In this document: piece after piece, positions 8,488-57,418 of the stretch
Layout of the letters: every line of letters starts with the position of its first letter
Position numbering within the stretch: the first letter of the stretch is position 1
Notes under the pieces: model-generated
Seen by the model: only the letters and a program-made list of their open reading frames with translations
The model's database searches: none
What the model was told of the DNA's origin: nothing
NCBI GenBank assembly: GCA_005881885.1
Contig: VBDX01000133.1
Location: 15,461-79,460 of the forward strand
Direction of reading: 5' to 3'
Length of the DNA stretch: 64,000 nucleotides
DNA from: Chloroflexota bacterium
GTDB lineage: Bacteria; Chloroflexota; Limnocylindria; P2-11E
Position numbers and translations under genes: made by a program

Positions 8488-10836
8488 TTGCGCCTCGCAC
8501 TGCCGTCGGGCCTGCTCGCCATGATCCTCGCGACGGCAGGGCTTCTCGTCGTGGGGGCAGGCGCGGCGCTCGCCTTCTTCACCGAGGACCTGCCCTCGCC
8601 ACAGGATCTCGCCAAGGCCCCGCTCGCGCAGGGGACCAAGGTCTACGACCGGACCGGCAACACGCTCCTTTACCAGTTCTCGGAGGAGAACCGCGAGGTC
8701 GTGGCCTTCGATCAAATCCCACAGGTGCTCGTCGACGCGACGGTCGCGGCCGAGGACAAGAGCTTCTGGAGCAACCCAGGCGTCGACGTGCTCGGGATCA
8801 TGCGGGCCGTCTACGCCGACCTCACCAGCCGCGGAACGGGCTCCGGCGGCGCGTCGACCATCACGCAGCAGCTTGTGAAGCAGCGGATCGTCGGCGGCGA
8901 GCTCTCCATCAAGCGAAAGATTCGCGAGGCCATCCTCGCGATCCAGGTCACAAACACCTATTCGAAGCAGCAGATCCTCGAGCTCTACTTCAATCAGATC
9001 TACTACGGCAATCAGGCGTACGGCGTGAAGGCCGCCGCGCAGACCTATTTCGGGAAGACCGATCTCACTCATCTCACCCTGGCTGAAGCCGCGCTCCTCG
9101 CGGGTCTGCCGCAGGCGCCTTCGGTCCTCGATCCGACCCAGGAGGCGAACGTGGACCGCGCCGAGGAACGGCGCGCCTACGTACTCGACCAGATGGTGGA
9201 GACGGGCGCGATCACCCAGCAGCAAGCCGACGCGGCGAACGCCGTGCCGATCAAGGTCGCCGGCCCGCCGGTCGCGACGATCAAGGCGCCGCACTTTGTC
9301 TTCCAGGTGCGGAACCAGCTGTCGCAGATCCTCGGTGGCGACGAGGCGGCCGTCACTCGCGGCGGCTACCGCGTCACGACCACGCTCGATCTGACCAAGC
9401 AGGAGATCGGCGAGCGGCAGGTGCGCGAATGGGTCGAGGAGCTCCACAACCGCAACGTCTGGAACGCGGCCCTCGTATCGATCGATCCGCGCAGCGGCGA
9501 GGTCCTCACCTACGTCGGTTCGGTCGACTACAACAACCGCGACGATCCGCGCGTGCAGGGCCAGTTCGACGTGGCGGGCATCGGGCTACGTCAGCCCGGC
9601 TCGTCCTTCAAGATGTTCAACTACGTGACTGCGCTCAAGAAGGGCGCGAGCGCGGCGACCGTGGTGGTTGACGCGCGCACCGACTTCACCGGGAAGGCCG
9701 ACCCCACGCGGATGAGCGCGACGGCCTGCGGCTACTGCCCGGAGAACGCCGACCTCCAGTACCACGGTCCGGTGACGATGCGCCAAGCGATCCGCGAATC
9801 TAGGAACGTACCGGCGGTCCGGTTCCTGGCTGAGTACTCGGGCATCGAGGACACCATCCAGACCGCGCATGAGCTGGGCATCACGACGGACATCGACTCG
9901 TCGAAGGTCGGGTTATCGCTGACGCTCGGAGCGCGCGAGGTGCACCTTGTCGACATGGCCAGCGCCTACGGCGTGCTCGCGAATATGGGTGTTCGGATCG
10001 CGCCGACGTACATCCTCAAGGTCGAGGATGCCCGCGGAAAGGTCGTCTGGGAGCACAAGGACTACGAGTCCAAGCGCGTGCTCGACCAGGGGATCGCCTG
10101 GATCATGACCGACATCCTCAAAGACACGACGCAGCCGTCGCGTAACTTCATCTTCGGCCAATGGACGAATATCGGTCGCGTGGCGGCGCTCAAGACCGGC
10201 ACGACCGACAACCTGAAGGACGTGTATTCGGTCGGCTACGTGCCCTCGCTGGTGACCGGGGTGTGGATGGGCAACTCGAACGGCGACCCTATGAGCTCGC
10301 GCGACTTCAACAGCGCGATGGGCCCCGGCCAGCTCTGGCGCGACTACATGAAGGAAGCGCTCACGGACACGCCGCCGTCGGACTGGCAGCGTCCGTCCAA
10401 CGTCGTGAGCGGCACGGTCGTCTCCGCGCCCGGCGCGTTCGGCGGATATGGCTCGGGCCTTCTTCCGTCGAGCCTCACGCCGTTCTCGACCACGGAGTGG
10501 TTCATCAAGGGCACGGAGCCCGCGAGGACCGACGACTGGTTCGTCGCGGGGTGCCAGCTACCCGACGGGTCACGGAAGGTCGCGATGAGGATCCAGGACA
10601 CCCACGCGCCGGCGGCCTTCCAGCGATACACGGACCAGTGGATCCGCGATGCGATCGCCGGCCGGCATACGTACGGCCGGTACACCTGGAACCTCGTGAG
10701 CCCAGATCCCTGCCCGACGCCGTCCCCGACGCCGTCGCCCTCGCCGACGCCGTTCTTCGGGTTCCCCACCCCGACGCCGACGCCTTTCTTCGGCTCGACC
10801 CCTACGCCGCGACCGACCAGCACCAAGAGGCCGTAG
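8488..10836 (+). CDS. Class A penicillin-binding protein (transglycosylase + transpeptidase, PBP1A family) with a C-terminal Pro/Thr/Ser-rich tail
   Basis: N-terminal TM helix, GT51 motifs ([19 protein letters not shown]), transpeptidase domain, and a (PT)n-type tail [29 protein letters not shown] start; ATG at 8521 is an alternative. Confidence 0.85.
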
Positions 10837-28872: not shown

Positions 28873-30372
28873 GTGGCACCGCTGATCACGATCGTCCGCA
28901 ATTGGTCCGTGCTCGCCGGCGCCCAGGTCGTGTCGAGCCTGATCGCCATGGTCTTCCTGATCGTCGTCTCGCGGACGCTCGGAGAGATCGAGTTCGGCCG
29001 CCTGTATCTCGCGCTAACGCTGACCGCGATCGTCGGGGTCGTCGTCGACTTCGGCCTGAGCCAGGTGGTCACGCGCTCCGTCGCTCGTGATCGAGCGCTC
29101 GCGCGACCGTACTTCCGGCGTGCTGCCTTCATCGTGGGGACGCTGGGTGCCGGTCTCTACGTGCTATTGCTGGGGGCAGCGCTCGCTCTCGGCTACACCG
29201 CCGAGGTGTTGTCGCTCGTGCTGATCCTCGGATTGCTCATGGTCGTCGAGGCGTTCTCCCAGCTTCTCGGCGCGCTCTTCCAGGCGCATGAGCAGATGCT
29301 GATCCCCGCGATCGCGCGCGTTGGTGGTAACGTCATCACGCTCGCGCTCGTCGTCCCGCTGCTGTTCCTTGGACATGGCGCCGCGATGGTGGCGACGGTG
29401 ATCGTCGTTGCCGCGGCGGCGCGCGTCGGATTCCAGGCGATCGCCGCGCGCCGTCTCAGTGGATTCCGGTTGCCCGCCCCGGCGGCACCGTCGTGGCGAG
29501 CGATGCTCCGTGCGGGATTTCCCTTCCTGACCGCGAACGGCTTCGCGCTCTTCGTCGCTCGGGTGGACGTGCTGATCCTGGGTCAGCTCGCCGGTGCGGC
29601 GGCCGTGGGCTGGTACGGCGCCGCCTCGCGGCTTGTCGAGGCCTTCTACTTCCTTCCGGTGCTCCTCACGACGGCGACGTTTCCCGTGCTCTCGCGGCTG
29701 TGGTCAGAAGACCGGAACGAGTTCCACGCGACGGTGCGCAAGACCCTCGACCTGCTGATCGTGCTCATCGTTCCGCTATCGGTCACGTTCTTCATCCTCG
29801 CCGAGAGCATCGTCGGGTCGCTCTTCACACTTCAGTCGTATGCGCCCGCGGTGCCCCTTCTCCGGATCCAGGCGCTGTCGCTGGCCTTGATCTTTGTGGA
29901 TTACCTGCTCACCTGCATCCTGCTCGCGACCGGACGGGAGCGGACGTGGATCACGATCCTCGGCGCGGCGTGTCTTGTGAACCCGGCGGTGAACTTTGTC
30001 CTGATCCCCGCGACGAGCGCCGCCTACGCGAATGGCGCGATCGGCGCCGCGCTCGCGACGTTGCTGACGGAGATCTTCATCCTGATCTGCGCGCTGCGCG
30101 TCGTTGCCGCGGGGACATTCGATGCCGGATCGGTCCGCGTCGCGGTACGCGCCGCGGTGCTGGGTGGGATCCTGGCGACGGCTCTGCTCGCCAGCCGCCC
30201 GCTGGGGATCCCCTGGATGTTGGCGGCCGCGGTCGGCGGCGCGGGCTACCTCGCCGCAGTGGTCCGGCTGGGCTTGCTGCCGCCGGACATCAAGGCCTGG
30301 GTCGGAGGTTTGCTGCGCCGGAGGCGACCGCTCGCGCTATCGACAGTGACCACGGAGCTCGACGCCGCCTGA
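28873..30372 (+). CDS. Polysaccharide/oligosaccharide flippase (Wzx-like, MOP superfamily)
   Basis: ~12 TM segments throughout. GTG start proposed just after the epimerase stop; the track ORF (28411) overlaps the epimerase. Confidence 0.75.
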   Translation: MAPLITIVRNWSVLAGAQVVSSLIAMVFLIVVSRTLGEIEFGRLYLALTLTAIVGVVVDFGLSQVVTRSVARDRALARPYFRRAAFIVGTLGAGLYVLLLGAALALGYTAEVLSLVLILGLLMVVEAFSQLLGALFQAHEQMLIPAIARVGGNVITLALVVPLLFLGHGAAMVATVIVVAAAARVGFQAIAARRLSGFRLPAPAAPSWRAMLRAGFPFLTANGFALFVARVDVLILGQLAGAAAVGWYGAASRLVEAFYFLPVLLTTATFPVLSRLWSEDRNEFHATVRKTLDLLIVLIVPLSVTFFILAESIVGSLFTLQSYAPAVPLLRIQALSLALIFVDYLLTCILLATGRERTWITILGAACLVNPAVNFVLIPATSAAYANGAIGAALATLLTEIFILICALRVVAAGTFDAGSVRVAVRAAVLGGILATALLASRPLGIPWMLAAAVGGAGYLAAVVRLGLLPPDIKAWVGGLLRRRRPLALSTVTTELDAA

Positions 30373-35423: not shown

Positions 35424-36685
35424 ACAGCCGCCTCGACCGGCGCGTCGGCCCAACGATGGGCTGAGCCAAGAAGCGACCTGACCACGCGCTGGGCCACGCC
35501 CAGACCGTGGTTCTGCTCGAGGTAGGCGTACCCGGCGCCGCGGAGGTTCGCCTGCAGCTCGGTGGACATCGCGACCTTCGCGAATCGGACGGCGAAAGCC
35601 CGCGGGTCGGATTCGACGAACACCTCTCGTCCGGGTTCGACCGCGAGACCCCGCGCCCCATCGGGCGTCGTCACCACGGGCACCCCATTGCGAAAGGCCT
35701 CGAGCAGCTTCATGCGCACGCCGGAACCGCCCAGCACCGGCGCGACCATCAGAGCGGACCGCTCGTACAGGGGCCCGAGCTCGGGAACTAACCCGAGGAC
35801 CGTTATCCCGGGCGCGCGCCACGCCGAGGGGACCAGCGGCGCGGCGCGCGAGCCATCCTCCAACCCCGAGCCCGCGATCTCCAGCGTCGCGGTCGGAAGC
35901 AGATCACGCACATGCGGCCACACCTGCCCGCAGAACCAGTCCAGCCCGCGCACGTTCGGATGCCAGGTAAGCGTTCCGACATAGCAGGCCCGCGGCGCGG
36001 CGCGCGTCTCGTTACGGCGTTCGAACGAGACGACCTGCGGTACCACGCGGGCTTCGACGCCCGCCAGTTCGCGATAGGCGCGCGCGTCGTCCGCGGAGAT
36101 CGCGCCGACGGCATCCACCTCACGGAGCACGTCGATCTCGAAGCGACGCGCGCGACGCCACTCGGCCTCGGCGACCGCGCGGCGGACACCACGCTGCCGT
36201 CGCGCGAACTGCGCCCAGATGTCGCTCTCCACGTTGTGCTGGTCGAGGACGATTCGCGCGCGCGGCTGGAGACGCCGGACCAGCGGCAGGTAGCGCGCGG
36301 TGCCGAGGGCGCCGAGCCACACTACGTCGAAGGGCTGACCGCGTAGCTCTCGCTCGATTGCGCTCCGCACCAGCGGCGACTCCCACTTCCCGGAGAGGTA
36401 CGGAACCCCGTGCACGATCCGTAGCCACGCGACGCGGGGAACGTAGCGGGGATGTTGAAAGAGATGGATCGGATGGAAGATCGGGTCGAGCACATCGACC
36501 TTCGGCATCTCGCGCGCGAGCCCGGCGCGAGCCGTGAAGGACGCCCGATCTTCGCTGAGCCAGAAGACCCGGATGCGTTCGACCTCAGGAAGCGACGAGA
36601 GCACTGCCAGCTGCGAGAGGACGCGAACCTGCCCCCCGCGAAGCGCCGGCCAGCCGAAATCAGGCGCCAGATAGAGAAGGCGCAT
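35420..36685 (-). CDS. Glycosyltransferase family 4
   Basis: GT-B fold with C-terminal '[20 protein letters not shown]' (EX7E-like region). ATG at 36685 ([13 protein letters not shown]). Confidence 0.75.
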
Positions 36686-36695
36686 TTGGTCCGTA

Positions 36696-36744
36696 GTTGA
36701 TGAACGACCCGCGGCATTGAGGGCCGGTATCGGGCCTGATTGAG
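36696..36744 (+). promoter_or_regulatory. Variant direct-repeat element (GTTGATG-N13-ATTGAGGGCC-N12-ATTGAGGGCC; 20/22-bp spacing) in the GT4/GT-C divergent intergenic region
   Basis: Same ATTGAG heptamer as the other five sites, at double helical spacing. Confidence 0.4.
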
Positions 36745-41992: not shown

Positions 41993-43287
41993 TTTCGCTT
42001 CCACCCCCTGAATGAAGTGCTCCGTGTCTCCCACGAGCGGGTGACGAAGTCGCGAAGCGTGAGCGCATCGACGTCGCCCGTGACGGCGAGCGCGCTACGC
42101 GCCCCGTCCGGCCATCTCCAGATCCGGACCAGCGGTCCGGGCGCCGTCTCGATCTCGCGCAAGATGTCGCCCTCCGACCAGCGCGCCGTCGCGACGTCCA
42201 CGTGCGCGCCGTATGCGCGCGCGTCGTCGGAGATCTCGAACGGCAGACCCTCCTCCGCAAGGAATCGGTGGACCGCGTCGGGCGACCGGTGCGACACGCC
42301 GACGACTGGCGCCCGTGCTGACTCCGTTTCGAAGTCGAACCGGTCCGTGCGCCGGTCACGCCCGTACCAGGGCTCCGCGCTTATCGCGAGCCCGCGAACG
42401 AGCACGGTCGCGTCCCCATCCGCGCCCACCTGGATGCGATACCGGCAGCCGCCGAGGCGCGTCACGCGGAGCGTGAAGCGACTGCGTCGCAGCCACCAGG
42501 ATGCGATCTCGTCGAGGCGCGCGATGAAGATGGCCGGCACGCGGCGGCGCGCCGCACCGAGGACGGCCTGAAGAGCGTTCCCCAGCTCCGGGATGCGCTC
42601 CGGATGAAGCTGGATCGTGAACAGGTCGCCGCGGCCAAAAGTCAGATCGAGCACGTGGCACCACTGGGAGGCCGCGGCGCACTCGGACCAGCGCAGACGC
42701 TCGACGAGCGTCTCGTCGTCCGGGATGGCGACGGGCACATCGACCAGTCCGTCACGAAGTCGTGGGATCACCGCGACGTCGCGCGCCGCGATGGCGGAGT
42801 ACAGCTCGAGTGCCAGCTCGTACCCCCGCGTCGCTTCGCTGCGCAGCGGAAAATGCACCGCCTGGCTGCTGTGGTACCGGAAACCGAGCTCGCGGAGGAC
42901 CTCGAGCGTCGCCTGGTTGTAGCGGAGGTACGGTCCGCGGAAGCCCGTCGGCTCGAGGCCGGCGCGCGTGAACAGCTCCATCGCCCGAGCGATGGTGTCG
43001 TGCTGCCGCTGGCGGTCCATCGCGGCGTGATCGCCGTGGACGAGGCCGTGCACCGGGATCTCCGCGCCCCGCGCGGCGAATCGCTGGAGCACCTCCGGGT
43101 GCCGGGCGAGGACGCACGCCGTCGTCGGCCAGGTCGGCCGGATGCCGAGCTCGGACGTGAGCGCGTCGTAGCGCTCGAGGCGCTGCACCATCGCTCCAGG
43201 GGTGGCCCCGAAGCGGGCGAGCACCTTCGCCGTGCGTGCCGCCGAACCGGCGGGGCCACGTCCGCGCAGGCTCATCGCGAGGCTCAT
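41989..43287 (-). CDS. Polysaccharide deacetylase (CE4 family) with a C-terminal extension
   Basis: 'IPVHGLVHGDH' and NodB-like motifs. ATG 43287 overlaps the GT4 stop (ATGA). Confidence 0.6.
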   Translation of the reverse strand: MSLAMSLRGRGPAGSAARTAKVLARFGATPGAMVQRLERYDALTSELGIRPTWPTTACVLARHPEVLQRFAARGAEIPVHGLVHGDHAAMDRQRQHDTIARAMELFTRAGLEPTGFRGPYLRYNQATLEVLRELGFRYHSSQAVHFPLRSEATRGYELALELYSAIAARDVAVIPRLRDGLVDVPVAIPDDETLVERLRWSECAAASQWCHVLDLTFGRGDLFTIQLHPERIPELGNALQAVLGAARRRVPAIFIARLDEIASWWLRRSRFTLRVTRLGGCRYRIQVGADGDATVLVRGLAISAEPWYGRDRRTDRFDFETESARAPVVGVSHRSPDAVHRFLAEEGLPFEISDDARAYGAHVDVATARWSEGDILREIETAPGPLVRIWRWPDGARSALAVTGDVDALTLRDFVTRSWETRSTSFRGWKRK

Positions 43288-44510
43288 GCGCGCTCCGCTC
43301 CGTCCACGGCGACGGGAACCGATCGCCGTAGCGTGTCCGCGGCGGCGAGGTGCTCCACCAGTTCGACGTAGCGCTTGGCCTGGCGCACCCAGCGGTATGG
43401 CTCGTTGACCTCGGTCGCCCGCCGGACGAGCCGCTGACGCAGCTCGGGATCCTCGTAGAGCTCGAGGATCGCGCGCGCGAGGTCCTGCTCGTTGCCCGAC
43501 TCGAACAGCTGGAAGCATTCGTCGCCGAAGTACGCCTCCACCGCGCGGGTCCGCGACGTGACGACAGGCTTCTGCATCGCGATGAGGTCGTACATCTTGT
43601 TGCTGTGCGTCAGGTCGAAGCACGCGTCCCTCCTGATCGCGACGACGCCGACGTCCGCCTCCGCGATCCTCGGGAGCAGCTCGTCCATGGGGACCCACCC
43701 ACGGCTGAACCAGACCAGATCCTCGACACCGAGCTCCTTCGCGAGGGCTTCGATGGATTCGCGACGCGGCCCGTCGCCGTAGATGCGAAGGAGGAGGCCG
43801 GGGATGCGGTGGCGGAGCCGCGCGATCGCGCGCACGACCAGGTCGAGGCCGTACATGTCGTCGATGGTTCCGTGGAAGACGAGCACGAAGTGCCCGCGAT
43901 CCCTCTTCACCGCGGAATACCGCCGCGGGTCGAACCGCTGATCATCGAAGGAGTTGAGGATGACCCCGATCTTCTCTTTGCGCGCTCCGCGCTCCGCGAA
44001 CCGCTCGCGCATCTGCTCAGTGCAGGTGATGGCCGCGTCGGCGAATCGAATGCTCACCTGCTCGCAGAGACCGAGCGCGCGGACCAGTGTGTGCTGCGCT
44101 GGCAGCTTGTACTTCAGCGAGAAGAATTCGGGCATGCATTCGTGGAGGTCCAAAAGGACGCGAGCGCCGAGCAGCCGTGGCACGAGCGCCGCGAAGACTA
44201 GGCAGTCAGGCAGCGAGTTCACCTGGACCACGTCGTAGCGCTCCCGCAAGTGCAGCCTCGTGGCGCGCAGCGCGGCGAGGACGAAGAAGGCGCCGTACTC
44301 GAGGACGTAGCTGATCTTCCCGCGACGCTGACGCTCGATCGGCAGGCGGTACACGGTGAGGCGGCCGCTCCGTTCATGCCGTGGCTGGTCGCCCCAGCGC
44401 TGGCAGATGAGGTCGACCTCATGACCCGCGGCGATGAGCGCCTTGACCTCGCGCGTTAAGCGCGCGTCGAACGGGAAGACGCCTTGGCGGATGACGCAGA
44501 TCCGGGCCAC
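43284..44510 (-). CDS. Glycosyltransferase family 4
   Basis: GT-B fold ('RICVIRQGVFPFDARL ... FHGTIDDMYGLDLVV ... NKMYDLIAMQKPVV'). GTG start overlaps the Wzy-like TAG (TAGTG). Confidence 0.75.
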   Translation of the reverse strand: MARICVIRQGVFPFDARLTREVKALIAAGHEVDLICQRWGDQPRHERSGRLTVYRLPIERQRRGKISYVLEYGAFFVLAALRATRLHLRERYDVVQVNSLPDCLVFAALVPRLLGARVLLDLHECMPEFFSLKYKLPAQHTLVRALGLCEQVSIRFADAAITCTEQMRERFAERGARKEKIGVILNSFDDQRFDPRRYSAVKRDRGHFVLVFHGTIDDMYGLDLVVRAIARLRHRIPGLLLRIYGDGPRRESIEALAKELGVEDLVWFSRGWVPMDELLPRIAEADVGVVAIRRDACFDLTHSNKMYDLIAMQKPVVTSRTRAVEAYFGDECFQLFESGNEQDLARAILELYEDPELRQRLVRRATEVNEPYRWVRQAKRYVELVEHLAAADTLRRSVPVAVDGAERA

Positions 44511-46039
44511 TAGCGCACCTGCTCGACCGCGGGGGATTCGAGCGATGCGGAGCGAACCAGGAACGCGCAGATCCCGAGGGCCGTCCCGAGGACGATCATC
44601 GACCGGCTGAACGTCATTCCCTGGTCGACGGAGGAGAAGATGACCTGACAGATAACGATCGCCAGGGGAAGCGCCGCGAGCCAGCGAAGCTCCCCGTCGC
44701 GCTGCTCTCGGACGAAGAGAGCCGAGCACACGAGAACCGCGCGCGCGACCAGGAACCAGAGCGCGAGCGCCGCGAAGGGACCCGCCTTCAGCCAGAGCCA
44801 GAGCAGCGCGTTGTGGGTGATGTTGCGCCAGTACGGCAACCCGTAGAGCGGCGGTGGCTGCTGCTGAAAGAGGTACTCCTGGCCAAGGCCGACGCCGGTC
44901 AGCGGCAGCTGACGCACGGTGTACGCGATATTCCGGTTCTCGATGACGCGCCACGCGTTCGAGCTCTGATCGCGCGTGCTGCTGGACGACGGCTCGACCA
45001 CCGCGCGCACCGCCCTCACCGGCTCGGCGATGGGCCCGCTCGAGTCCCAAAAGAGCGCTCCGTACGCGGCGAGGCCGACCGCCGCGACCCCGGCGAGCAC
45101 GAGCGCTCGGCGTCGGCGGACGAAGAACGTGAGCAAGGTGATGACGGCGAAGACCGCGGCCATCGCGATGAAGGCGGTCCGCCGCTGGTCGAGAAGCAGA
45201 GCGACGAGGATCACCGGCTGCAGCCCAAGCAGGAAATAACCGAACCTCGTGCGCACCCGCAGCGCCACCATCGCGATGGCGAGGGCGATGGCGGCGTCGA
45301 AGAAGACGATGTCCTCATGGCTCGTCACGGAGCCGGCGTCATATGGTGTCCAAGCGGGGCCCTCCTGGTAGTTACCGATCCCCTGGAGCGCCTTGACGGC
45401 GACAAGCGCAACGAACATCCACACGATGACCATGAGCTGGCGGCGGTCCTCGACGAGGTTCGCCGCGAGGAAGTAGAGGGCGCACAGCTCGATCGGCGCG
45501 CGCACCTCGTTCAACCCCGCCTCGAGGTCCACTCCGCCGCGGGCGACACCGATCAGGCCGCCGAGCGCGAAGGCGGCTCCGTACCCGACGATCGCCCAGC
45601 CGAACGGACCCATTCGCAACGCCTCGCGCCGTCCGGTCAGCCGATGGAAGACGAGACTCGCGCCGGTGAGCAGCATCAAGAGTTCCGCGAGGCTCAGACG
45701 GATCGGCAGGGGCGTGTAGGCGGACACATTCTGGAAGAGATGCGACTGCGCGGTGAGCGGGGCGAGGCCCGCGATCGCGAACTGCTCGAAGAGCAGCGCC
45801 GCGCCGAACAGCAGGTACACGCCGGTGACGGGGTGCGCGCCGACCATGAGTACGACGAGCGCGCCGACCACCGGAGCGAGCGCGAGCACGTCGCCGCCGG
45901 TGGCGATGATCACGGCGGCGTACGCGCCTGCGAATGCCACGGTCAGTACGAAACCGACGATCGCGCCGCGGCGCGCGCGCCACGCGTACGCATCGCTCGT
46001 CGGCCAGGCCCGCGCGCCAGTCTGGAGCACGGCGCTCAT
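44510..46039 (-). CDS. O-antigen ligase / Wzy-like polysaccharide polymerase (multi-TM)
   Basis: ~12 TM helices with a large periplasmic loop; Wzy_C-like. ATG 46039. Confidence 0.7.
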   Translation of the reverse strand: MSAVLQTGARAWPTSDAYAWRARRGAIVGFVLTVAFAGAYAAVIIATGGDVLALAPVVGALVVLMVGAHPVTGVYLLFGAALLFEQFAIAGLAPLTAQSHLFQNVSAYTPLPIRLSLAELLMLLTGASLVFHRLTGRREALRMGPFGWAIVGYGAAFALGGLIGVARGGVDLEAGLNEVRAPIELCALYFLAANLVEDRRQLMVIVWMFVALVAVKALQGIGNYQEGPAWTPYDAGSVTSHEDIVFFDAAIALAIAMVALRVRTRFGYFLLGLQPVILVALLLDQRRTAFIAMAAVFAVITLLTFFVRRRRALVLAGVAAVGLAAYGALFWDSSGPIAEPVRAVRAVVEPSSSSTRDQSSNAWRVIENRNIAYTVRQLPLTGVGLGQEYLFQQQPPPLYGLPYWRNITHNALLWLWLKAGPFAALALWFLVARAVLVCSALFVREQRDGELRWLAALPLAIVICQVIFSSVDQGMTFSRSMIVLGTALGICAFLVRSASLESPAVEQVR

Positions 46040-46188
46040 CGCGAGCCGACGAGTAGCGCGAACTGGGCGGCGACCATCGCCGCCGCGAAGGTCGCGGCGA
46101 CCCAGGGGCGCGCGACGCGAGATCCGCCCATGGCGCCGAGACCCGCGCAGAGCACGAAGAGGAGCACCGCCAAGGCCGTGTAGGTCAC
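46036..46188 (-). CDS. Putative 50-aa two-TM micro-protein wedged between the CpsD-like and Wzy-like genes
   Basis: GTG start overlaps the CpsD-like TGA (GTGA). Its TGA overlaps the Wzy ATG (ATGA). Product: VTYTALAVLLFVLCAGLGAMGGSRVARPWVAAATFAAAMVAAQFALLVGSR (two hydrophobic helices, basic loop). Confidence 0.3.
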   Translation of the reverse strand: MTYTALAVLLFVLCAGLGAMGGSRVARPWVAATFAAAMVAAQFALLVGSR

Positions 46189-46811
46189 GCGCGTGCCGCG
46201 AGGAGCGCCGCGGGGACGTCGACCGAGGATCCTCTGGCTCGGTTCAGAACGATGTAGGGCGGCGCCGCGAGGCTGAGCTTGCCGAGGGCCTGCTGGATCA
46301 GGGGTAGCGGTGTGGCTCCTTCGCGCAGTACGACGAAGAGCTGGTCGACCAGCGCGGCCCAGGGCAGCACGAACGTTTCGCCGGCAAGCACCGGCGGAAG
46401 GTCCACGATGACCGTCTCGAAGGAGACGGCCTCCTTGGCCACGAACGATGCGAGCCCCCGGAGGGTCGGCCTCGCGCCCATGCCGTCGCCGAGTGGCAGG
46501 AAGGCAACGCGCGAGGGGGCGTACCGGCGGATGCAGGCCGCGGCGTCGGCCCGGTCCGCAAGTAGCTCGGCCAGCCCAACGCTCGATTCGAGACGAGCGT
46601 CGCGTGTCAGCGAGGGATGGATCCAGTTCGCGTCGACGAGCAGCACGCTGCCCCTGCGCATCGCCGCGAGCGAAAGCGCCGTGCCGAGCGCGAGCGTGCT
46701 GACGCCCTCGCCGAGCAGGGCACTGGTGAAACCGATTGTGCGAAAGCCCATCGCATCGACGCGGCTGGCCAGCCCGTCGAACGTGGCCATGAGGCTCGCC
46801 GGTGCGCTCAT
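46185..46811 (-). CDS. CpsD/Wzc-type (BY-kinase/MinD-like) ATPase domain protein with a degenerate Walker A (GEGVST)
   Basis: 'FTSALLGEGVSTLALGTALSLA' in place of the canonical 'SxxPGEGKST'. Walker A' 'VLLVDANWIHPSL'. Walker B 'VIVDLPPVL'. ATG overlaps the Wzz-like stop (ATGA). Confidence 0.65.
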   Translation of the reverse strand: MSAPASLMATFDGLASRVDAMGFRTIGFTSALLGEGVSTLALGTALSLAAMRRGSVLLVDANWIHPSLTRDARLESSVGLAELLADRADAAACIRRYAPSRVAFLPLGDGMGARPTLRGLASFVAKEAVSFETVIVDLPPVLAGETFVLPWAALVDQLFVVLREGATPLPLIQQALGKLSLAAPPYIVLNRARGSSVDVPAALLAARA

Positions 46812-47848
46812 CCGCTCACCTCTCCGTTTCGCGCGCCGCCGTCCGCGAATGCGATCGCGGCGAGCGAGGTGCGCAGGTCACCAGGACTCGCGCCGCCACC
46901 CGCTCGCGTCACGCGGGGTACGGCCGCGAAGAGCCGGGCGGGTGCGAGCCGGCTGACATCGGCGGGTCCTGATACGTGCGCCGGAAGCAGCGTGCCGATG
47001 ACCACGAGGAGCGCGGCGAGGGCGCACCCCGCGGCGATCGCGACGGCGCCGATCATCGCGGCGGATCGAGTACCGCCTCGCGGCGAGGTCTCGACCTGTG
47101 GCTGGTCGACGACCTGGAACTCCATGCCGCTCACTGACAGGATGGCGGGCGCGAGGGCCGCTTGGTTGATGCGGCCGCGCAGGTCGCCGAGGCGGATCTG
47201 CGCGTAGTCGAGAGTCAGCCGGAGTTGATCCTTCAGATGCTGCTCGATATCGCTGAGCGCTCCGGGATGGCTCGCGTCGAACTCGTCGAGCGCGCGCTGG
47301 GCATCGAGCGCCTGGGCCTGGGCGACCTGGAGCTGCTTCTGGTAAAGCGTGTTCGTGATCGTCGTGAAGGTGGTACTCGCCTGCGCCACCCGATCCGCTC
47401 GAACAGCGAGGATGGCGTTGACCATCTCCGGTCCGAGCGGCGGATCGTGGGCCGCGAACGAGACGGTCAGCAGATTGTTCCCGTGTGTCTGGACGCGGAA
47501 GCTCTTCTGGACACCGGCCAGGAATTTCGTCTCGTCCGGCGCGGCTGCGAGCGCCGCGCGCAGGGAGGTCTGCCGGACCACGTCGCGAAGGAACTCCTTC
47601 GTCTGTAACAGCTGATTCAGCAGGTCAGCCTGCTGGGAAGCGGCCGTCTGAATGACCGTCGCATTCGGGTCGTCAGGGCTCGTCGTCGCCAATTCCGGCG
47701 AGGCCCGGAGCACCCAGATCGTGGCCTCGGACTCGAAGGTCGTCGCGTACTCCGTGTAGGCGGCGACGATCCCGGCTCCCCAGATGATCGCCAGGACCGC
47801 CCCGAGCAGCCAGCGATAGCGATGAGCAGTGGTGAGGTACGGCCGCAT
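46808..47848 (-). CDS. Polysaccharide co-polymerase (Wzz/CpsC-like chain-length determinant)
   Basis: N-terminal and C-terminal TM helices flanking a ~250-aa coiled-coil-rich periplasmic domain. Confidence 0.7.
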   Translation of the reverse strand: MRPYLTTAHRYRWLLGAVLAIIWGAGIVAAYTEYATTFESEATIWVLRASPELATTSPDDPNATVIQTAASQQADLLNQLLQTKEFLRDVVRQTSLRAALAAAPDETKFLAGVQKSFRVQTHGNNLLTVSFAAHDPPLGPEMVNAILAVRADRVAQASTTFTTITNTLYQKQLQVAQAQALDAQRALDEFDASHPGALSDIEQHLKDQLRLTLDYAQIRLGDLRGRINQAALAPAILSVSGMEFQVVDQPQVETSPRGGTRSAAMIGAVAIAAGCALAALLVVIGTLLPAHVSGPADVSRLAPARLFAAVPRVTRAGGGASPGDLRTSLAAIAFADGGARNGEVSG

Positions 47849-54455: not shown

Positions 54456-54484
54456 ATTGAGCGCTCGTTGACGCTGGGTTGACC
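54456..54484 (+). promoter_or_regulatory. Triple direct-repeat element ATTGAGC-gctc-GTTGACG-ctgg-GTTGACC upstream of the 979-aa secreted protein
   Basis: Exact 11-bp periodicity. It overlaps the TTG used as the ORF start in the track, which argues for a later true start. Confidence 0.55.
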
Positions 54485-54580
54485 GGAATGGGCAAAGAGC
54501 GGCGCTATCGCGAGGCGCGTTCCGAAAGGTCATGCCGTCGCCGCAGCGCTCCTCAATCCGCGACGTGTTTGATCCCACCC

Positions 54581-57418
54581 GTGCGCGGAGATCTCCGGCA
54601 TCGGCTCGCGCTGATCCTCGTCACGGCGATGGTCGGTGTATACCTCTACGCCGCGGAGCCGTCACCGGCGACGACGGCCCTTGGCGCCGACAATCCGATC
54701 GTCGTTGAGAACCAGTTCCCGGGATCGAACGCGTGGCTTCCGGGATCGTCCATCGCCGACGATGCGGCCGGACAGATCAAGGGCTACGCCTCGGCGACCA
54801 GCGTCGCTCAGGGACAGAGCATCAGCCTGTTCGTCACGGTCAGCCCGGCCCAGACCTACACGATCGACTTCTACCGGCTCGGCTACTACGCCGGCGCCGG
54901 TGGCCGGCTTCGTCTGCAGACCGGCCCGCTCAACGGCGTCACGCAGGCCCCGTGCGGTGCGGACTCGACCACGGGCCTCATCGAGTGCAACTGGCCGCCG
55001 AGCTACACGCTGACCATCCCGAGCGATTGGACGAGCGGCGTCTACATCGTCAAGCTGACGAACTCCCTCGGATATCAGAACTACGTCATGTTCGTCGTCA
55101 AAGACGGGCGCCCGGCGCCGTACCTCTACCAGCAGGCCGTCCTCACCGACCAGGCCTACAACAACTACCCGAACAATCACGTGACCGGGAAGAGCCTCTA
55201 CAGCTTCAATAGCTACGGGCCGAACACGGTCGCCGGCGAAACGCGGGCGGTCAAAGTCTCGTTCGATCGTCCCTACGCGGACTACGGCTTTCCAGAGGTG
55301 GATGCCATCGAGTTCATCCGCTGGATCGAGCGTTCTGGTTACGACGTCACGTACTCGACGAATGTCGACACGCATGCGAATGGTTCAGCCCTCCTGACTC
55401 ACAAGGCCTTCATGTCGATCGGCCACGACGAGTACTGGTCGAAGCCGATGTTCGACGCGGTCCAGGCCGCCCGCGACGCGGGGGTTGGTCTGGCGTTCTT
55501 CGGAGCGGACGCGGTCAGCGTGCAGGTGCGAATCGAGTCTGCGACCGACGGCGAACCTAACCGCGTGGTGGTCTGCTACAAGAGCGCGGCCCTCGACCCG
55601 GTGCAGGGTCCGACGACCACGGTCGCGTGGCGCAGCGCACCGGTGAATCGTCCCGAACAGGCACTCCGGGGGATCCAGGACACCTTCCACGCGATCGTGA
55701 ACTCGAACGTGGATTACGTGGTCAACAACAGCTCTCACTGGATCTATGCCGGGACCGGCTTCAAGGACAACGATGTGGTGCCGGGGATCGTCGGCTACGA
55801 GAGCGACCGCTTCATGACCGGGTTCCCCGCTCCGAACTCGACGAACCAAACGCTCTTGTCGCATTCGCCGTTCACCAACAACGAGGGCGGCGCCGAGTAC
55901 CAGAACTCCTCCATCTACCAGGCCCCGAGCGGCGCATGGGTCTTCTCGTCCGGCACGATGTCGTGGAGCTGGGGCCTGGACAGCTTCTGGCACGGACGCG
56001 CAGACGCCCGGATCCAGCTAACGACGACCAACCTCCTCAACGCGTTCACCGCCGCTCCCGCCCCCACACCCACTCCGACGCCAACACCTACTCCAACCCC
56101 GACACCTACTCCCACGCCGACGCCTACTCCGACACCGACGCCAACTCCGACGCCAACTCCGACGCCGACACCTACCCCGACGCCGACACCTACTCCCACA
56201 CCGACGCCACCACCGAGCGGCGTCCACGATCTTCGGGTGACGGCCGCGGCGACCACGACTGCGGGCCAGTCCTTCACCGTCGGTGTGACCGCCGAGGACG
56301 CGCTGGGCAGCCCGGTCACGTCTTACAGCGGCACCGTTCACTTCGCCAGCAGCGACACGTCGTCGGGGGTCGTGCTGCCAGCCGACTCGACCTTGACGAA
56401 CGGTCAGGGCACCTTCTCGCTGACCCTGACCAAGGCCGGATCGCAAACGGTCACCGTTTCCGACGCCGCGAACGCGCTCACCACGACCGCGACAATGGGC
56501 GTCACTGCCGCGGCGGCCAACAGTCTCGCGCTCGCCACCGCGGCCAGCCCGAAGGCCGGGACGCCCTTCCAGTTCACCGTGACCGCGAAGGACTCGTTCG
56601 GCAACACCGACACGTCCTACGCCGGGACGGTGCACTTCACGAGCAGCGATAGCGCGAGCGGCGTGTCGCTTCCGGCTGACGGCAGCCTGACGAACGGTCA
56701 GCAGACCTTCTCGGCGACGCTGGTCACGCTCGGCTCGCAGACCATCACGGCCACCGGCGCGACGATCACCGGAACGCTTTCGGTCACCGTCAGCCCGGGG
56801 AACGCGTCGAAGCTCGTGCTTGCCACCAGCGGCACTCCGACCGCCGGTACGGCTTTCCAGTTCACCGTGACCGCGCAGGACCCCTTTGGTAACACGGCCA
56901 CGTCCTACACCGGGACGGTGCACTTCACGAGCAGCGACACGTCCTCGGGCGTCGTGCTCCCGGCCGACTCGACCTTGACGAACGGCCAGCGGACGTTCTC
57001 GGCGACGCTCATCAGGGCCGGTGCCCAGACGATCACCGCGACGGACAAAGTCACCTCGAGCATCACCGGGAACCTCAATGTCTCGGTGCGGCCCGGCGCC
57101 GCCGCGGTCGTCATCGTCGCGGCGCCAGCGACCGTCGTGGCGGGCCAGTCCTTCAACTTCACGGTCACGCTGAAGGACGGCTTCGGGAACGCGGCGACCG
57201 GCTACACCGGGACGATGCACTTCACGACCAACGACATCTCGCCGCTCGTCGTGTTGCCAGCGGACTACGCCTTCAATGGCGGCGACGCCGGAGCGCACAC
57301 CTTCTCGGCGACCCTCTGGACGCCGCCGAGCCGGCCGATCACCGCGACGGACACCGTAAACGCGAGCCTCACCGGCACGGCGGCGGTAGGAGTGACGCTG
57401 GTGCCACCGCTCCCGTAG
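54581..57418 (+). CDS. Large secreted protein: N-terminal ~500-aa domain (possibly N,N-dimethylformamidase-large-subunit-like), (PT)n linker, and four tandem ~95-aa bacterial Ig-like (Big-type) repeats
   Basis: Likely GTG start at ~54581 giving the signal peptide 'RGDLRHRLALILVTAMVGVYLYAA'. Repeats of 'GTPFQFTVTAKDSFGNTDTSYAGTVHFTSSD ... LTNGQ.TFSATL'. The family assignment of the N-domain is from memory only. Confidence 0.6.
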   Translation: MRGDLRHRLALILVTAMVGVYLYAAEPSPATTALGADNPIVVENQFPGSNAWLPGSSIADDAAGQIKGYASATSVAQGQSISLFVTVSPAQTYTIDFYRLGYYAGAGGRLRLQTGPLNGVTQAPCGADSTTGLIECNWPPSYTLTIPSDWTSGVYIVKLTNSLGYQNYVMFVVKDGRPAPYLYQQAVLTDQAYNNYPNNHVTGKSLYSFNSYGPNTVAGETRAVKVSFDRPYADYGFPEVDAIEFIRWIERSGYDVTYSTNVDTHANGSALLTHKAFMSIGHDEYWSKPMFDAVQAARDAGVGLAFFGADAVSVQVRIESATDGEPNRVVVCYKSAALDPVQGPTTTVAWRSAPVNRPEQALRGIQDTFHAIVNSNVDYVVNNSSHWIYAGTGFKDNDVVPGIVGYESDRFMTGFPAPNSTNQTLLSHSPFTNNEGGAEYQNSSIYQAPSGAWVFSSGTMSWSWGLDSFWHGRADARIQLTTTNLLNAFTAAPAPTPTPTPTPTPTPTPTPTPTPTPTPTPTPTPTPTPTPTPTPTPTPTPTPPPSGVHDLRVTAAATTTAGQSFTVGVTAEDALGSPVTSYSGTVHFASSDTSSGVVLPADSTLTNGQGTFSLTLTKAGSQTVTVSDAANALTTTATMGVTAAAANSLALATAASPKAGTPFQFTVTAKDSFGNTDTSYAGTVHFTSSDSASGVSLPADGSLTNGQQTFSATLVTLGSQTITATGATITGTLSVTVSPGNASKLVLATSGTPTAGTAFQFTVTAQDPFGNTATSYTGTVHFTSSDTSSGVVLPADSTLTNGQRTFSATLIRAGAQTITATDKVTSSITGNLNVSVRPGAAAVVIVAAPATVVAGQSFNFTVTLKDGFGNAATGYTGTMHFTTNDISPLVVLPADYAFNGGDAGAHTFSATLWTPPSRPITATDTVNASLTGTAAVGVTLVPPLP
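56060..56215 (+). repeat. Hexanucleotide tandem repeat (ccgacg/ccaacg/cctact units) encoding a (Pro-Thr)n linker
   Basis: ~26 consecutive PT dipeptides. Similar DNA repeats recur at 62405-62700, 59690-59770, 33290-33460/33780-34000 and 10720-10830. Confidence 0.7.

What the first reader, a model, noticed from the sequence alone, without database searches (positions are those of the whole stretch)
46036..46188. Unannotated 50-aa two-transmembrane micro-ORF exactly bridging the CpsD-like stop and the Wzy-like start
The 145-nt gap between the CpsD-like and Wzy-like genes is filled precisely by an ORF. Its GTG overlaps the upstream TGA (GTGA) and its TGA overlaps the downstream ATG (ATGA), the same coupling grammar as every other junction in the operon.

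The product (VTYTALAVLLFVLCAGLGAMGGSRVARPWVAAATFAAAMVAAQFALLVGSR) is two hydrophobic helices joined by a basic loop. Such micro-proteins are routinely missed by annotation pipelines. It could be an accessory subunit of the polymerase/co-polymerase complex.
Basis: seen in the sequence. Interest (0 to 1): 0.5.

Follow-up and report, generated by a model that had tools for sequence, protein, structure and literature searches.

The report
Conserved two-helix membrane microprotein gene
The 50-codon reading frame between the kinase-like gene and the polymerase gene is a real gene for a tiny two-helix membrane protein, kept in the same sugar-polymer gene cluster across an uncultured group of soil bacteria, though its job has never been tested.

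Summary
A 50-codon ORF lies on the minus strand at 46036..46188. Its GTG overlaps the TGA of the 208-aa CpsD-like gene, and its TGA overlaps the ATG of the Wzy-like gene.

An open frame alone means little here: 54-60% of 49-codon stretches in this 68% GC DNA have no stop. Comparison settles it.
- 76 distinct homologues of 46-52 aa fall into 48 clusters at 50% identity. All are stand-alone and none is fused to a larger protein.
- Starting from Wzy homologues alone, the gene turned up in 14 of 16 Chloroflexota/Limnocylindria MAG loci. The other two contigs cannot show the expected site.
- dN/dS is 0.09-0.5 in frame and above 1 in the shifted frames.
- A35 and Q42 are invariant and G18 is 99% conserved. 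Length changes are whole codons, in the loop.
- The gene survives three gene orders, one of which places it away from Wzy.

AlphaFold predicts a helical hairpin, and the basic loop suggests both termini face outward. No Pfam, NCBIfam, PDB or Rfam match was found. Consecutive accessions imply the source NCBI record does not annotate it.

A role as a small subunit or modulator of the Wzy/Wzz machinery is plausible but unproven. I rate it an uncharacterised family of a known kind, of moderate interest.

The parts
46036..46188 (-). Micro-gene: 50 codons plus stop, GTG start. It encodes a two-helix membrane microprotein.
   Evidence: ORF and translation. Homologues. In-frame dN/dS 0.09-0.5 against above 1 in shifted frames.
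46185..46188 (-). GTGA: the micro-gene start codon overlaps the TGA stop of the 208-aa kinase-like gene.
   Evidence: The same RTGA overlap occurs in all A-type loci where the upstream gene is on the contig. No Shine-Dalgarno-like motif in the 20 nt upstream (gcgctcctcgcggcacgcgc).
46036..46039 (-). ATGA: the micro-gene TGA stop overlaps the ATG of the Wzy-like gene.
   Evidence: Of the 18 loci where Wzy follows the micro-gene, 17 have a start codon 3 nt before the micro-gene's last base; in one of them (L034) that frame stays open for only 82 codons. The exception, L031, has a 5-codon relay ORF between the two genes.
46129..46185 (-). Predicted helix 1 (residues 2-20). It includes Y3, T4, C14 and the 99%-conserved G18 (codon 46135..46137).
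   Evidence: AlphaFold2 with a 49-sequence alignment gives helix 2-20, mean pLDDT 75.9. Column conservation.
46108..46128 (-). Short basic loop (residues 21-27, GGSRVAR). All length variation in the family falls here.
   Evidence: Mean K+R is 2.4 in the loop, against 0.08 at the N-terminus and 0.29 at the C-terminus.
46042..46107 (-). Predicted helix 2 (residues 28-49). It is Ala-rich, with invariant A35 and Q42 (Q42 codon CAG at 46063..46065).
46185..46811 (-). Upstream neighbour: 208-aa BY-kinase-like (CpsD/CapB-like) protein. It lacks the Walker A lysine and has no C-terminal tyrosine cluster.
   Evidence: NCBIfam TIGR03018 3.7e-15, below cutoff. PDB VpsO 1.3e-09 and BceF 2.6e-06, with GEGVST aligned to GEGKTT. 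The same substitution occurs in 11 loci. NCBI name.
46808..47848 (-). 346-aa chain-length-determinant-like (Wzz/PCP-like) protein, the first gene of the run.
   Evidence: TIGR03007 1.3e-14, below cutoff. Homologues precede the micro-gene directly in L016 and L037.
44510..46039 (-). Downstream neighbour: 509-aa Wzy-like repeat-unit polymerase.
   Evidence: Pfam Wzy_C 2.3e-14, above cutoff. NF041870 Wzy_EPS 1.2e-12, below cutoff.
43284..44510 (-). 408-aa GT4 glycosyltransferase. Its orthologue is the gene directly downstream of the micro-gene in B-type loci.

Best explanation
**What it is**
- The ORF is a real gene for a 50-residue integral membrane microprotein, a helical hairpin (helix 2-20, basic loop, helix 28-49).
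- The short Arg-rich loop most likely faces the cytoplasm, with both termini on the outer face.
- It is a constant member of a Wzx/Wzy-type exopolysaccharide operon found in the soil Chloroflexota class Limnocylindria.

**How it is made**
- In this window it has no ribosome-binding site of its own.
- It is most likely translated by termination-reinitiation. Ribosomes finishing the kinase-like gene restart at the GTG (GTGA), and ribosomes finishing the microprotein restart at the Wzy ATG (ATGA).
- This would couple translation of the three products.

**What it most likely does**
- It sits in the membrane as a small subunit or modulator of the polymer-assembly machinery.
- Wzy, or the Wzy/Wzz-like pair, is the most likely partner.
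- Contact would be through an Ala/Gly-rich helix face and a conserved polar cluster (Y3, T4, Q42) near the outer end of the hairpin.

**Shown versus inferred**
- Shown: the gene, selection on the peptide, conservation and synteny.
- Inferred: topology, the coupling mechanism and the partner.
For: **Reality of the gene**
- 11 called proteins of 48-51 aa at 59-98% identity.
- A profile search of 1.84 billion representatives finds 48 clusters at 50% identity, all of 37-78 aa (mostly 46-52). None is part of a larger protein.
- Across 76 distinct sequences, A35 and Q42 are invariant. G18 is 99%, L46 93% and Y3 92% conserved.

**Selection on the peptide**
- Median NG86 dN/dS is 0.38 in frame, against 1.22 and 2.21 in the shifted frames.
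- Close pairs show 16 synonymous against 4 non-synonymous codon changes (WIN/L022, dN/dS 0.105) and 12 against 4 (L001/L019, 0.088).
- All ORF lengths are 147, 150 or 153 nt, and indels fall in the loop.

**Unbiased synteny test**
- Loci were fetched with the Wzy protein only.
- They carry exactly one copy in 14 of 16 cases, at E 1e-13 to 1e-23. The next best hit is E 0.28.
- L038 starts inside Wzy, so the position expected for its gene order is off the contig. L033 has no room upstream of Wzy and no hit in the 4 kb downstream that it covers.

**Independence from one context**
- The gene survives three gene orders.

**Structure and topology**
- AlphaFold2 predicts helix-loop-helix with pLDDT 75.9.
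- K+R averages 2.4 in the loop, 0.08 at the N-terminus and 0.29 at the C-terminus.

**Link to the machinery**
- The stop/start overlap with Wzy occurs in all but one (L031) of the 18 distinct loci where Wzy follows the micro-gene.
- All 28 distinct loci where the family was found lie beside recognisable genes of this cluster; the full set of Wzz-like, Wzy, GT4, deacetylase, FAD-oxidoreductase, ATP-grasp and FemAB-like genes was mapped in the longer ones.

**Precedents**
- Small membrane proteins are known to act on such machinery. RmpD binds Wzc (PMC12648545). ExoX/PsiA are proposed to act on ExoY/PssA (PMC1403797).
Against: - No experiment or interaction prediction links the protein to any partner.
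- In 10 distinct B-type loci the gene is two genes away from Wzy, directly in front of a GT4 glycosyltransferase. Adjacency therefore does not single out Wzy.
- The kinase-like neighbour was not detected in the B-type or A'-type loci examined, so it cannot be an obligatory partner.
- Operon co-membership is equally compatible with a partner among Wzx, the Wzz-like protein or GT4.
- Topology rests only on the positive-inside rule.
- Translation has not been observed.
- The AlphaFold model has moderate confidence, and a hairpin is what any two hydrophobic segments would give.
Confidence: 0.6

Rival explanations
1. It is a real microprotein of the same operon, but its partner is not the polymerase. 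It may anchor or modulate the GT4 glycosyltransferase that follows it in B-type loci, or act on the Wzx flippase or another membrane step of the pathway.
For: - In 10 distinct loci it lies directly upstream of the GT4 orthologue and 2.8-3 kb from Wzy.
- In the window the order micro-Wzy-GT4 becomes micro-GT4 if Wzy is removed.
- All pathway genes co-occur, so the genomics cannot discriminate between partners.
Against: - GT4 enzymes are normally peripheral cytoplasmic proteins. The microprotein exposes only about 7 loop residues to the cytoplasm, and its conserved polar residues sit at the other end of the hairpin (inference).
- The majority arrangement couples it to Wzy.
Confidence: 0.22
2. 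The ORF matters mainly as a translational relay. It carries ribosomes from the kinase-like gene to the Wzy start, which has no ribosome-binding site, and the peptide itself is incidental.
For: - Both ends overlap neighbouring genes, and no Shine-Dalgarno-like sequence precedes the micro-gene or Wzy.
- The operon family clearly uses relays. In all 10 distinct B-type loci and in L031, a 3-9-codon ORF with a non-conserved peptide bridges the next spacer in exactly this way.
Against: - A relay needs no particular peptide. Here dN/dS is 0.09-0.5, residues are invariant, and length and hairpin design are kept across 48 clusters at 50% identity.
- The true relay ORFs show what an unconstrained peptide looks like.
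- The gene is retained where the downstream gene is different and where spacers replace the overlaps.
Confidence: 0.1
3. It is a fragment of a neighbouring gene. It could be the N-terminal two helices of Wzy, or a C-terminal extension of the kinase-like gene, cut off by a frameshift, a sequencing error or programmed frameshifting.
For: - The 4-nt overlaps mean that a single-base slip would fuse the frames.
- The micro-ORF frame stays open for more than 100 codons upstream.
- One cluster member of 139 aa exists (P0081).
Against: - The same separate ORF occurs in 28 distinct sequences from many independent assemblies.
- In B-type loci it stands alone, with an in-frame stop 12-16 nt upstream and a spacer downstream.
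- No fused form appears among 1.84 billion representatives.
- Wzy here already aligns to the Wzy_EPS model from model position 25 of 486.
- The upstream open frame has no start codon and no conservation. The 139-aa entry is a read-level fragment.
Confidence: 0.03
4. It is a chance open frame in GC-rich intergenic DNA.
For: 54-60% of 49-codon stretches in this DNA lack stops.
Against: All the comparative evidence argues against it.
Confidence: 0.01

Closest known systems
RmpD of hypervirulent Klebsiella pneumoniae (58 aa)
   Same: A small membrane protein acting in a Wzy-dependent polysaccharide pathway. It binds the machinery (Wzc, the chain-length/tyrosine-kinase protein) and changes chain length (PMC12648545). 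[quoted passage not shown]
   Different: RmpD has one N-terminal helix and a basic cytosolic C-terminal tail, and it lies in a regulatory rmp locus. The microprotein here has two helices and almost no soluble part, and it sits inside the biosynthetic operon. RmpD was not compared directly, so sequence relatedness was not tested. The kinase-like partner here lacks the Walker A lysine and was not detected in the loci without it that were examined.
ExoX / PsiA of rhizobia (about 10 kDa)
   Same: Small inner-membrane-attached proteins encoded with exopolysaccharide genes. They are proposed to act post-translationally by binding a membrane enzyme of the pathway, in a dose-dependent ratio (PMC1403797).
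   Different: They are about twice as long and are proposed to target the priming transferase ExoY/PssA. They act as inhibitors and are separately regulated rather than translationally coupled. No Pfam family reached threshold for any of 49 members.
Iap, the phage-encoded 'inhibitor of alpha polymerase'
   Same: A phage-encoded seroconversion protein named as an inhibitor of the O-antigen polymerase; it is listed among viral seroconversion proteins in PMC8787464. That it is a very small hydrophobic peptide acting on Wzy is from my own knowledge. It shows that Wzy can be controlled by a micro-peptide in the membrane.
   Different: It is phage-borne and inhibitory, and I recall it as having a single helix. 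The gene here is a chromosomal core member of the operon.
Small flippase-type proteins GtrA and ArnE/ArnF
   Same: Small membrane proteins encoded in glycan-modification loci (PMC13390465).
   Different: They have 3-4 helices (PMC13390465), are more than 100 residues long by my recollection, and have Pfam models. No such hit appears here, and 50 residues with two helices is too small for that fold.

Membership tests
Any Pfam-A or NCBIfam family | A score above the curated cutoff of a family model. | tested here: not met
   The window protein has 0 families at E<=0.01 in Pfam and NCBIfam. Scanning all 49 members of A2 gives only scattered sub-threshold hits (best 0.009, DUF7525 in 5 of 49) to unrelated small-membrane families.
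Solved structures (PDB) | Profile similarity to a chain of known structure. | tested here: not met
   The best hit is E=2, to SecG residues 2-16.
RmpD-like Wzc-binding microproteins | A single N-terminal transmembrane helix followed by a positively charged cytosolic C-terminal region. | tested here: not met
   Two predicted helices. Mean K+R at the C-terminus is 0.29.
RmpD-like Wzc-binding microproteins | Physical binding to the chain-length/tyrosine-kinase protein, with an effect on chain length. | not testable with these tools
   Needs two-hybrid or co-purification assays and polymer sizing.
ExoX/PsiA post-translational EPS inhibitors | An inner-membrane-attached protein of about 10 kDa whose excess over the priming transferase blocks synthesis. 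| not tested
   At 5 kDa the size differs and no Pfam family reaches threshold. ExoX itself was not compared, and the dosage phenotype cannot be tested here.
Bacterial lipoprotein | A basic n-region followed by a lipobox [LVI][ASTVI][GAS]C. | tested here: not met
   The window has FVLC (position -1 is Leu) and no basic N-terminus. A proper LIGC occurs only in the L001/L019/L020/L039 subgroup. In the other members that column is A, S, V or L.
PEP-CTERM sorting-signal proteins (the neighbours resemble XrtA-associated EPS genes) | A Pro-Glu-Pro motif, a hydrophobic helix and a C-terminal Arg cluster, with a passenger domain between the signal peptide and the sorting signal. | tested here: not met
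   There is no PEP motif (RPW/RPR instead), no passenger region in 50 residues and no NCBIfam hit. The neighbours match the XrtA-associated models only below cutoff.
Rfam RNA families / intrinsic terminator / sigma-70 promoter in the gap | A match to a covariance model or a consensus site. | tested here: not met
   0 Rfam matches at E<=1 over 45000..47200. No promoter-like site was found, and the only terminator-like site (on the + strand at 47505) lies outside the gap.
Protein-coding gene under purifying selection | Excess of synonymous change in one frame, indels in whole codons, and start and stop conserved in orthologous loci. | tested here: met

The most novel reading that the evidence does not exclude
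The microprotein could be an obligatory third membrane subunit of the Wzy/Wzz-type polymerase complex in Limnocylindria. It would be made in step with Wzy through stop/start coupling, and its outer-leaflet polar cluster (Y3, T4, Q42) would help hold the lipid-linked repeat unit or set chain length. That would be a component with no counterpart in the textbook Wzx/Wzy/Wzz scheme.
Probability: 0.25. Interest if true: 0.6.

Novelty: new member of a known kind. Interest (0 to 1): 0.4.

Why it matters
- Wzy polymerases are hard to study, and how they are regulated and assembled with co-polymerases is still open.
- A conserved 5-kDa membrane partner encoded in front of Wzy would be a concrete, testable candidate for a missing component.
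- It is also a clean example of a microprotein family with no Pfam or NCBIfam model that appears to have been skipped in the source record's annotation.
- The family is confined, as far as seen, to an uncultured soil Chloroflexota class. The immediate impact is therefore on annotation and on comparative study of exopolysaccharide loci.
- The relay mini-ORFs found alongside it are a useful warning. Exact bridging of a gap can be selected for translation alone.

Tried and rejected
**Searches that gave nothing or little**
- A scan of species-representative genomes with the microprotein alignment A1 found nothing. The patterns were too specific. The Wzy-based scan followed by my own HMM showed the gene is present in those genomes.
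- An exact look-up of the window Wzy through the look-up of encoding contigs found nothing. The listing of cluster members later found it as TMG46933.1.
- Pfam, NCBIfam, PDB profile and Rfam searches found no family.
- The promoter/terminator scan found nothing in the gap.
- The structure comparison against afdb50 was unavailable. I did not run the PDB libraries, because a two-helix hairpin matches too many things to be informative.
- A literature search for Limnocylindria plus exopolysaccharide returned 0 papers.

**Ideas considered and rejected**
- Lipoprotein signal: the lipobox occurs in one subgroup only.
- PEP-CTERM sorting signal: no PEP motif.
- Split N-terminus of Wzy: no fused relatives, and Wzy aligns from near the model start.
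- Toxin- or holin-like peptide: the gene is found only in the sense orientation inside these operons.
- Antisense long ORF 44813..46183 (+): a GC-rich shadow frame, since selection is on the minus frame.

**Not attempted**
- Co-folding of the microprotein with Wzy. The structure tool takes single chains made of window or search-returned sequences only.
Full report
**1. The observation**

The ORF exists as described, on the minus strand at 46036..46188 (GTG start, 50 codons, TGA stop).
- Its GTG overlaps the TGA of the 208-aa ORF 46185..46811 (GTGA).
- Its TGA overlaps the ATG of the 509-aa ORF 44510..46039 (ATGA).
- The gap it fills is 145 nt.

The peptide is VTYTALAVLLFVLCAGLGAMGGSRVARPWVAATFAAAMVAAQFALLVGSR.

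The same overlap style runs through the operon. Of seven junctions from 47848 to 39516, five are 4-nt xTGA overlaps, one is a 1-nt overlap and one is a 2-nt gap.

- The 509-aa protein hits Wzy_C (2.3e-14).
- The 208-aa protein matches the XrtA-associated tyrosine autokinase model below cutoff. It also matches the kinase domains of VpsO and BceF in the PDB.
- The 346-aa protein matches the chain-length-determinant model below cutoff.

**2. Is it more than chance?**

Taken alone, hardly. In this 68% GC DNA, 60% of shuffles of the inner 147 nt have no in-frame stop. Across the six frames of the window, 54% of all 49-codon stretches are open.

GC by codon position (0.71/0.59/0.88) does look like the neighbouring genes. 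The question had to be settled by comparison with other sequences.

**3. Comparative evidence**

*Homologues.* A search of called proteins returned 11 homologues of 48-51 aa at 59-98% identity, all small stand-alone proteins.

A profile search of 1.84 billion cluster representatives found 48 clusters at 50% identity. All are 37-78 aa, mostly 46-52, and none lies within a larger protein.

*Unbiased synteny test.* I fetched loci from species-representative genomes using only the Wzy protein. That gave 16 loci, all Chloroflexota/Limnocylindria soil MAGs apart from two oddly labelled bins. I then scanned their six-frame translations with an HMM of the microprotein.
- Fourteen loci hold exactly one copy, at E 1e-13 to 1e-23. 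The next best hit anywhere is E 0.28.
- L038 begins inside Wzy, so the expected position for its gene order is off the contig.
- L033 has no room upstream of Wzy and no hit in the 4 kb downstream that it covers.

*Selection.* Codon alignments of 15 distinct nucleotide versions give these values:

| Comparison | Result |
|---|---|
| Median NG86 dN/dS, in frame | 0.38 |
| Median dN/dS, frame shifted by 1 | 1.22 |
| Median dN/dS, frame shifted by 2 | 2.21 |
| WIN vs L022 | 16 synonymous, 4 non-synonymous codon changes (dN/dS 0.105) |
| L001 vs L019 | 12 synonymous, 4 non-synonymous (dN/dS 0.088) |

All versions are 147, 150 or 153 nt long, and the length changes lie in the loop.

*Conservation.* Over 76 distinct proteins, A35 and Q42 are invariant. 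G18 is 99%, L46 93%, Y3 92%, V39 89%, A31 88% and T4 84% conserved.

This is a protein-coding gene under purifying selection.

**4. Gene orders**

The gene occurs in three arrangements.

| Type | Gene order | Loci |
|---|---|---|
| A | Wzz-like / 208-aa kinase-like / micro / Wzy, with RTGA overlaps at both ends | 16 distinct loci including the window; L028 starts just upstream of the micro-gene, so its upstream gene is unknown |
| A' | Wzz-like / micro / Wzy, no kinase-like gene | L016, L037 |
| B | Wzz-like / Wzy / Wzx / GT4 (about 444 aa) / micro / GT4 (about 403 aa) | 10 distinct loci |

In type B the gene stands alone. The upstream gene's stop lies 12-16 nt before it, or overlaps its start (ATGA) in the L014/L021/L024 subgroup, and a 12-25 nt spacer follows it.

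In every locus long enough to show it, the surrounding gene set is the same: deacetylase, FAD oxidoreductase, ATP-grasp and FemAB-like genes. By NCBIfam these weakly resemble XrtA/PEP-CTERM-associated EPS loci, all below cutoff.

The microprotein is therefore a constant member of this operon type. It does not depend on the kinase-like gene, and it is not always next to Wzy.

**5. Structure and topology**

AlphaFold2 with the 49-sequence alignment gives helix 2-20, loop 21-27 and helix 28-49 (mean pLDDT 75.9).

Basic residues concentrate in the loop. Mean K+R is 2.4 there, against 0.08 at the N-terminus and 0.29 at the C-terminus. By the positive-inside rule, the loop would face the cytoplasm and both termini would face outward. 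This is an inference.

In a hairpin, Y3 and T4 would lie level with Q42 near the outer end. Helix 2 is a run of small residues (A31, A35, A36/A37, A40/A41) of the kind that packs tightly against other helices. This too is an inference.

**6. Mechanism**

No Shine-Dalgarno-like sequence precedes the micro-gene or Wzy in the window. The overlaps therefore point to termination-reinitiation, which would link synthesis of the kinase-like protein, the microprotein and Wzy.

The peptide itself is under selection and survives in the B arrangement, so its role is not only to relay ribosomes.

The most likely role is a small membrane subunit or modulator of the polymer-assembly machinery, with Wzy or the Wzy/Wzz-like pair as first candidates. 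A partner among GT4 or Wzx is not excluded.

My confidence by level:
- About 0.95 that it is a real gene.
- About 0.6 that it acts on the assembly machinery.
- About 0.3-0.35 that Wzy is the direct partner.

**7. Comparison with what is known**

No Pfam, NCBIfam, PDB or Rfam family matches.

The functional analogues are all unrelated in architecture:
- RmpD is 58 aa and binds Wzc and sets capsule chain length (PMC12648545).
- ExoX/PsiA are small inner-membrane proteins proposed to inhibit the priming transferase (PMC1403797).
- Iap is a phage-encoded inhibitor of the O-antigen polymerase (mentioned in PMC8787464).

It is thus an uncharacterised family of a known kind.

**8. Annotation status**

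The exact flanking proteins are NCBI TMG46933.1 (E6H91_10885, Wzy-like), TMG46934.1 ('CpsD/CapB family tyrosine-protein kinase') and TMG46935.1 (E6H91_10895). They come from a 'Chloroflexi bacterium' MAG contig of 82,270 nt.

Consecutive accessions and locus-tag steps of 5 leave no slot for the micro-gene.

The exact peptide was nevertheless called on 53 + 24 contigs by other pipelines. Homologues in other MAGs are annotated as 'hypothetical protein'.

**9. Verdict**

The finding is real and the reading frame is conserved. The functional guess is reasonable but untested. Interest is moderate at 0.4. It is a good annotation catch and a testable candidate partner of Wzy, in an uncultured lineage.

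Noticed in passing
Loci L001 6145-6172, L019, L020, L039, L032, L036, L030, L014, L021, L024 (spacer after the micro-gene); L031 about 8964-8984: - In all 10 distinct B-type loci, the 12-25 nt spacer between the micro-gene and the next gene is itself spanned by a 3-9-codon ORF.
- Its RTG overlaps the micro-gene TGA, and its TGA overlaps the next ATG (TGATG). L031 has the same kind of relay in front of Wzy.
- The peptides are not conserved (MSANGGVD, VSARGEVA, MSV, VTEGAR and others), but the frame is kept at five different lengths.
- This is either a relic of an in-frame loss of Wzy (L001 still reads ATGAGCGCC, like the window's Wzy start) or a selected ribosome relay.
   Followed up: partly
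window 46185-46811 (-): - The CpsD/CapB-like protein has GEGVST where BY-kinases have GxGK[ST] (aligned to GEGKTT of VpsO).
- It has DANW where the Walker A' motif has DxD.
- It has no C-terminal tyrosine cluster.
- The lysine is replaced (by V, T or A) in all 11 loci checked.
- It looks like a conserved catalytically dead kinase-like protein.
   Followed up: partly
The sequence encodes 50 (WVAATF).
   Followed up: yes
L026 (DATLPP010000085.1, labelled Candidatus Udaeobacter) and L040 (DASPWX010000123.1, labelled Candidatus Bathyarchaeia); also HYV22437.1: Two MAGs assigned to a verrucomicrobial genus and to an archaeal class carry the same Chloroflexota-type locus. Their Wzy is 55-64% identical to the window's, and the micro-gene and the 208-aa gene are present. 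These contigs are probably mis-binned.
   Followed up: no
L034 6450-7831: The Wzy homologue is open for only 82 codons from the overlapping GTG and then continues in another frame. This is a frameshift, from either an assembly error or a pseudogene.
   Followed up: no
L001, L019, L020, L039 micro-gene, residues 16-19: One subgroup of the family has a lipobox-like LIGC. The window protein and most other members do not, and none has a basic N-terminus.
   Followed up: partly
window 35459-36730 (-) and 29563-30189 (+): The orthologue of the 444-aa GT4 that precedes the micro-gene in B-type loci lies about 10 kb away in the window, at the far end of the operon. The only Wzx-like match is a partial one at 29.5-30.2 kb on the other strand. 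The same gene set is heavily reshuffled between relatives.
   Followed up: partly
window 54479-57418 (+): A 979-aa ORF has a long (Thr-Pro)n linker followed by about five tandem repeats of a roughly 90-residue unit (...TSYSGTVHFTSSDTSSGVVLPADSTLTNGQ...). I saw it in the translation and did not analyse it.
   Followed up: no
window 44813-46183 (+): A 456-aa ORF runs antisense to Wzy and the micro-gene. It is a GC-rich shadow frame. Substitution patterns show that selection acts on the minus-strand frame.
   Followed up: yes
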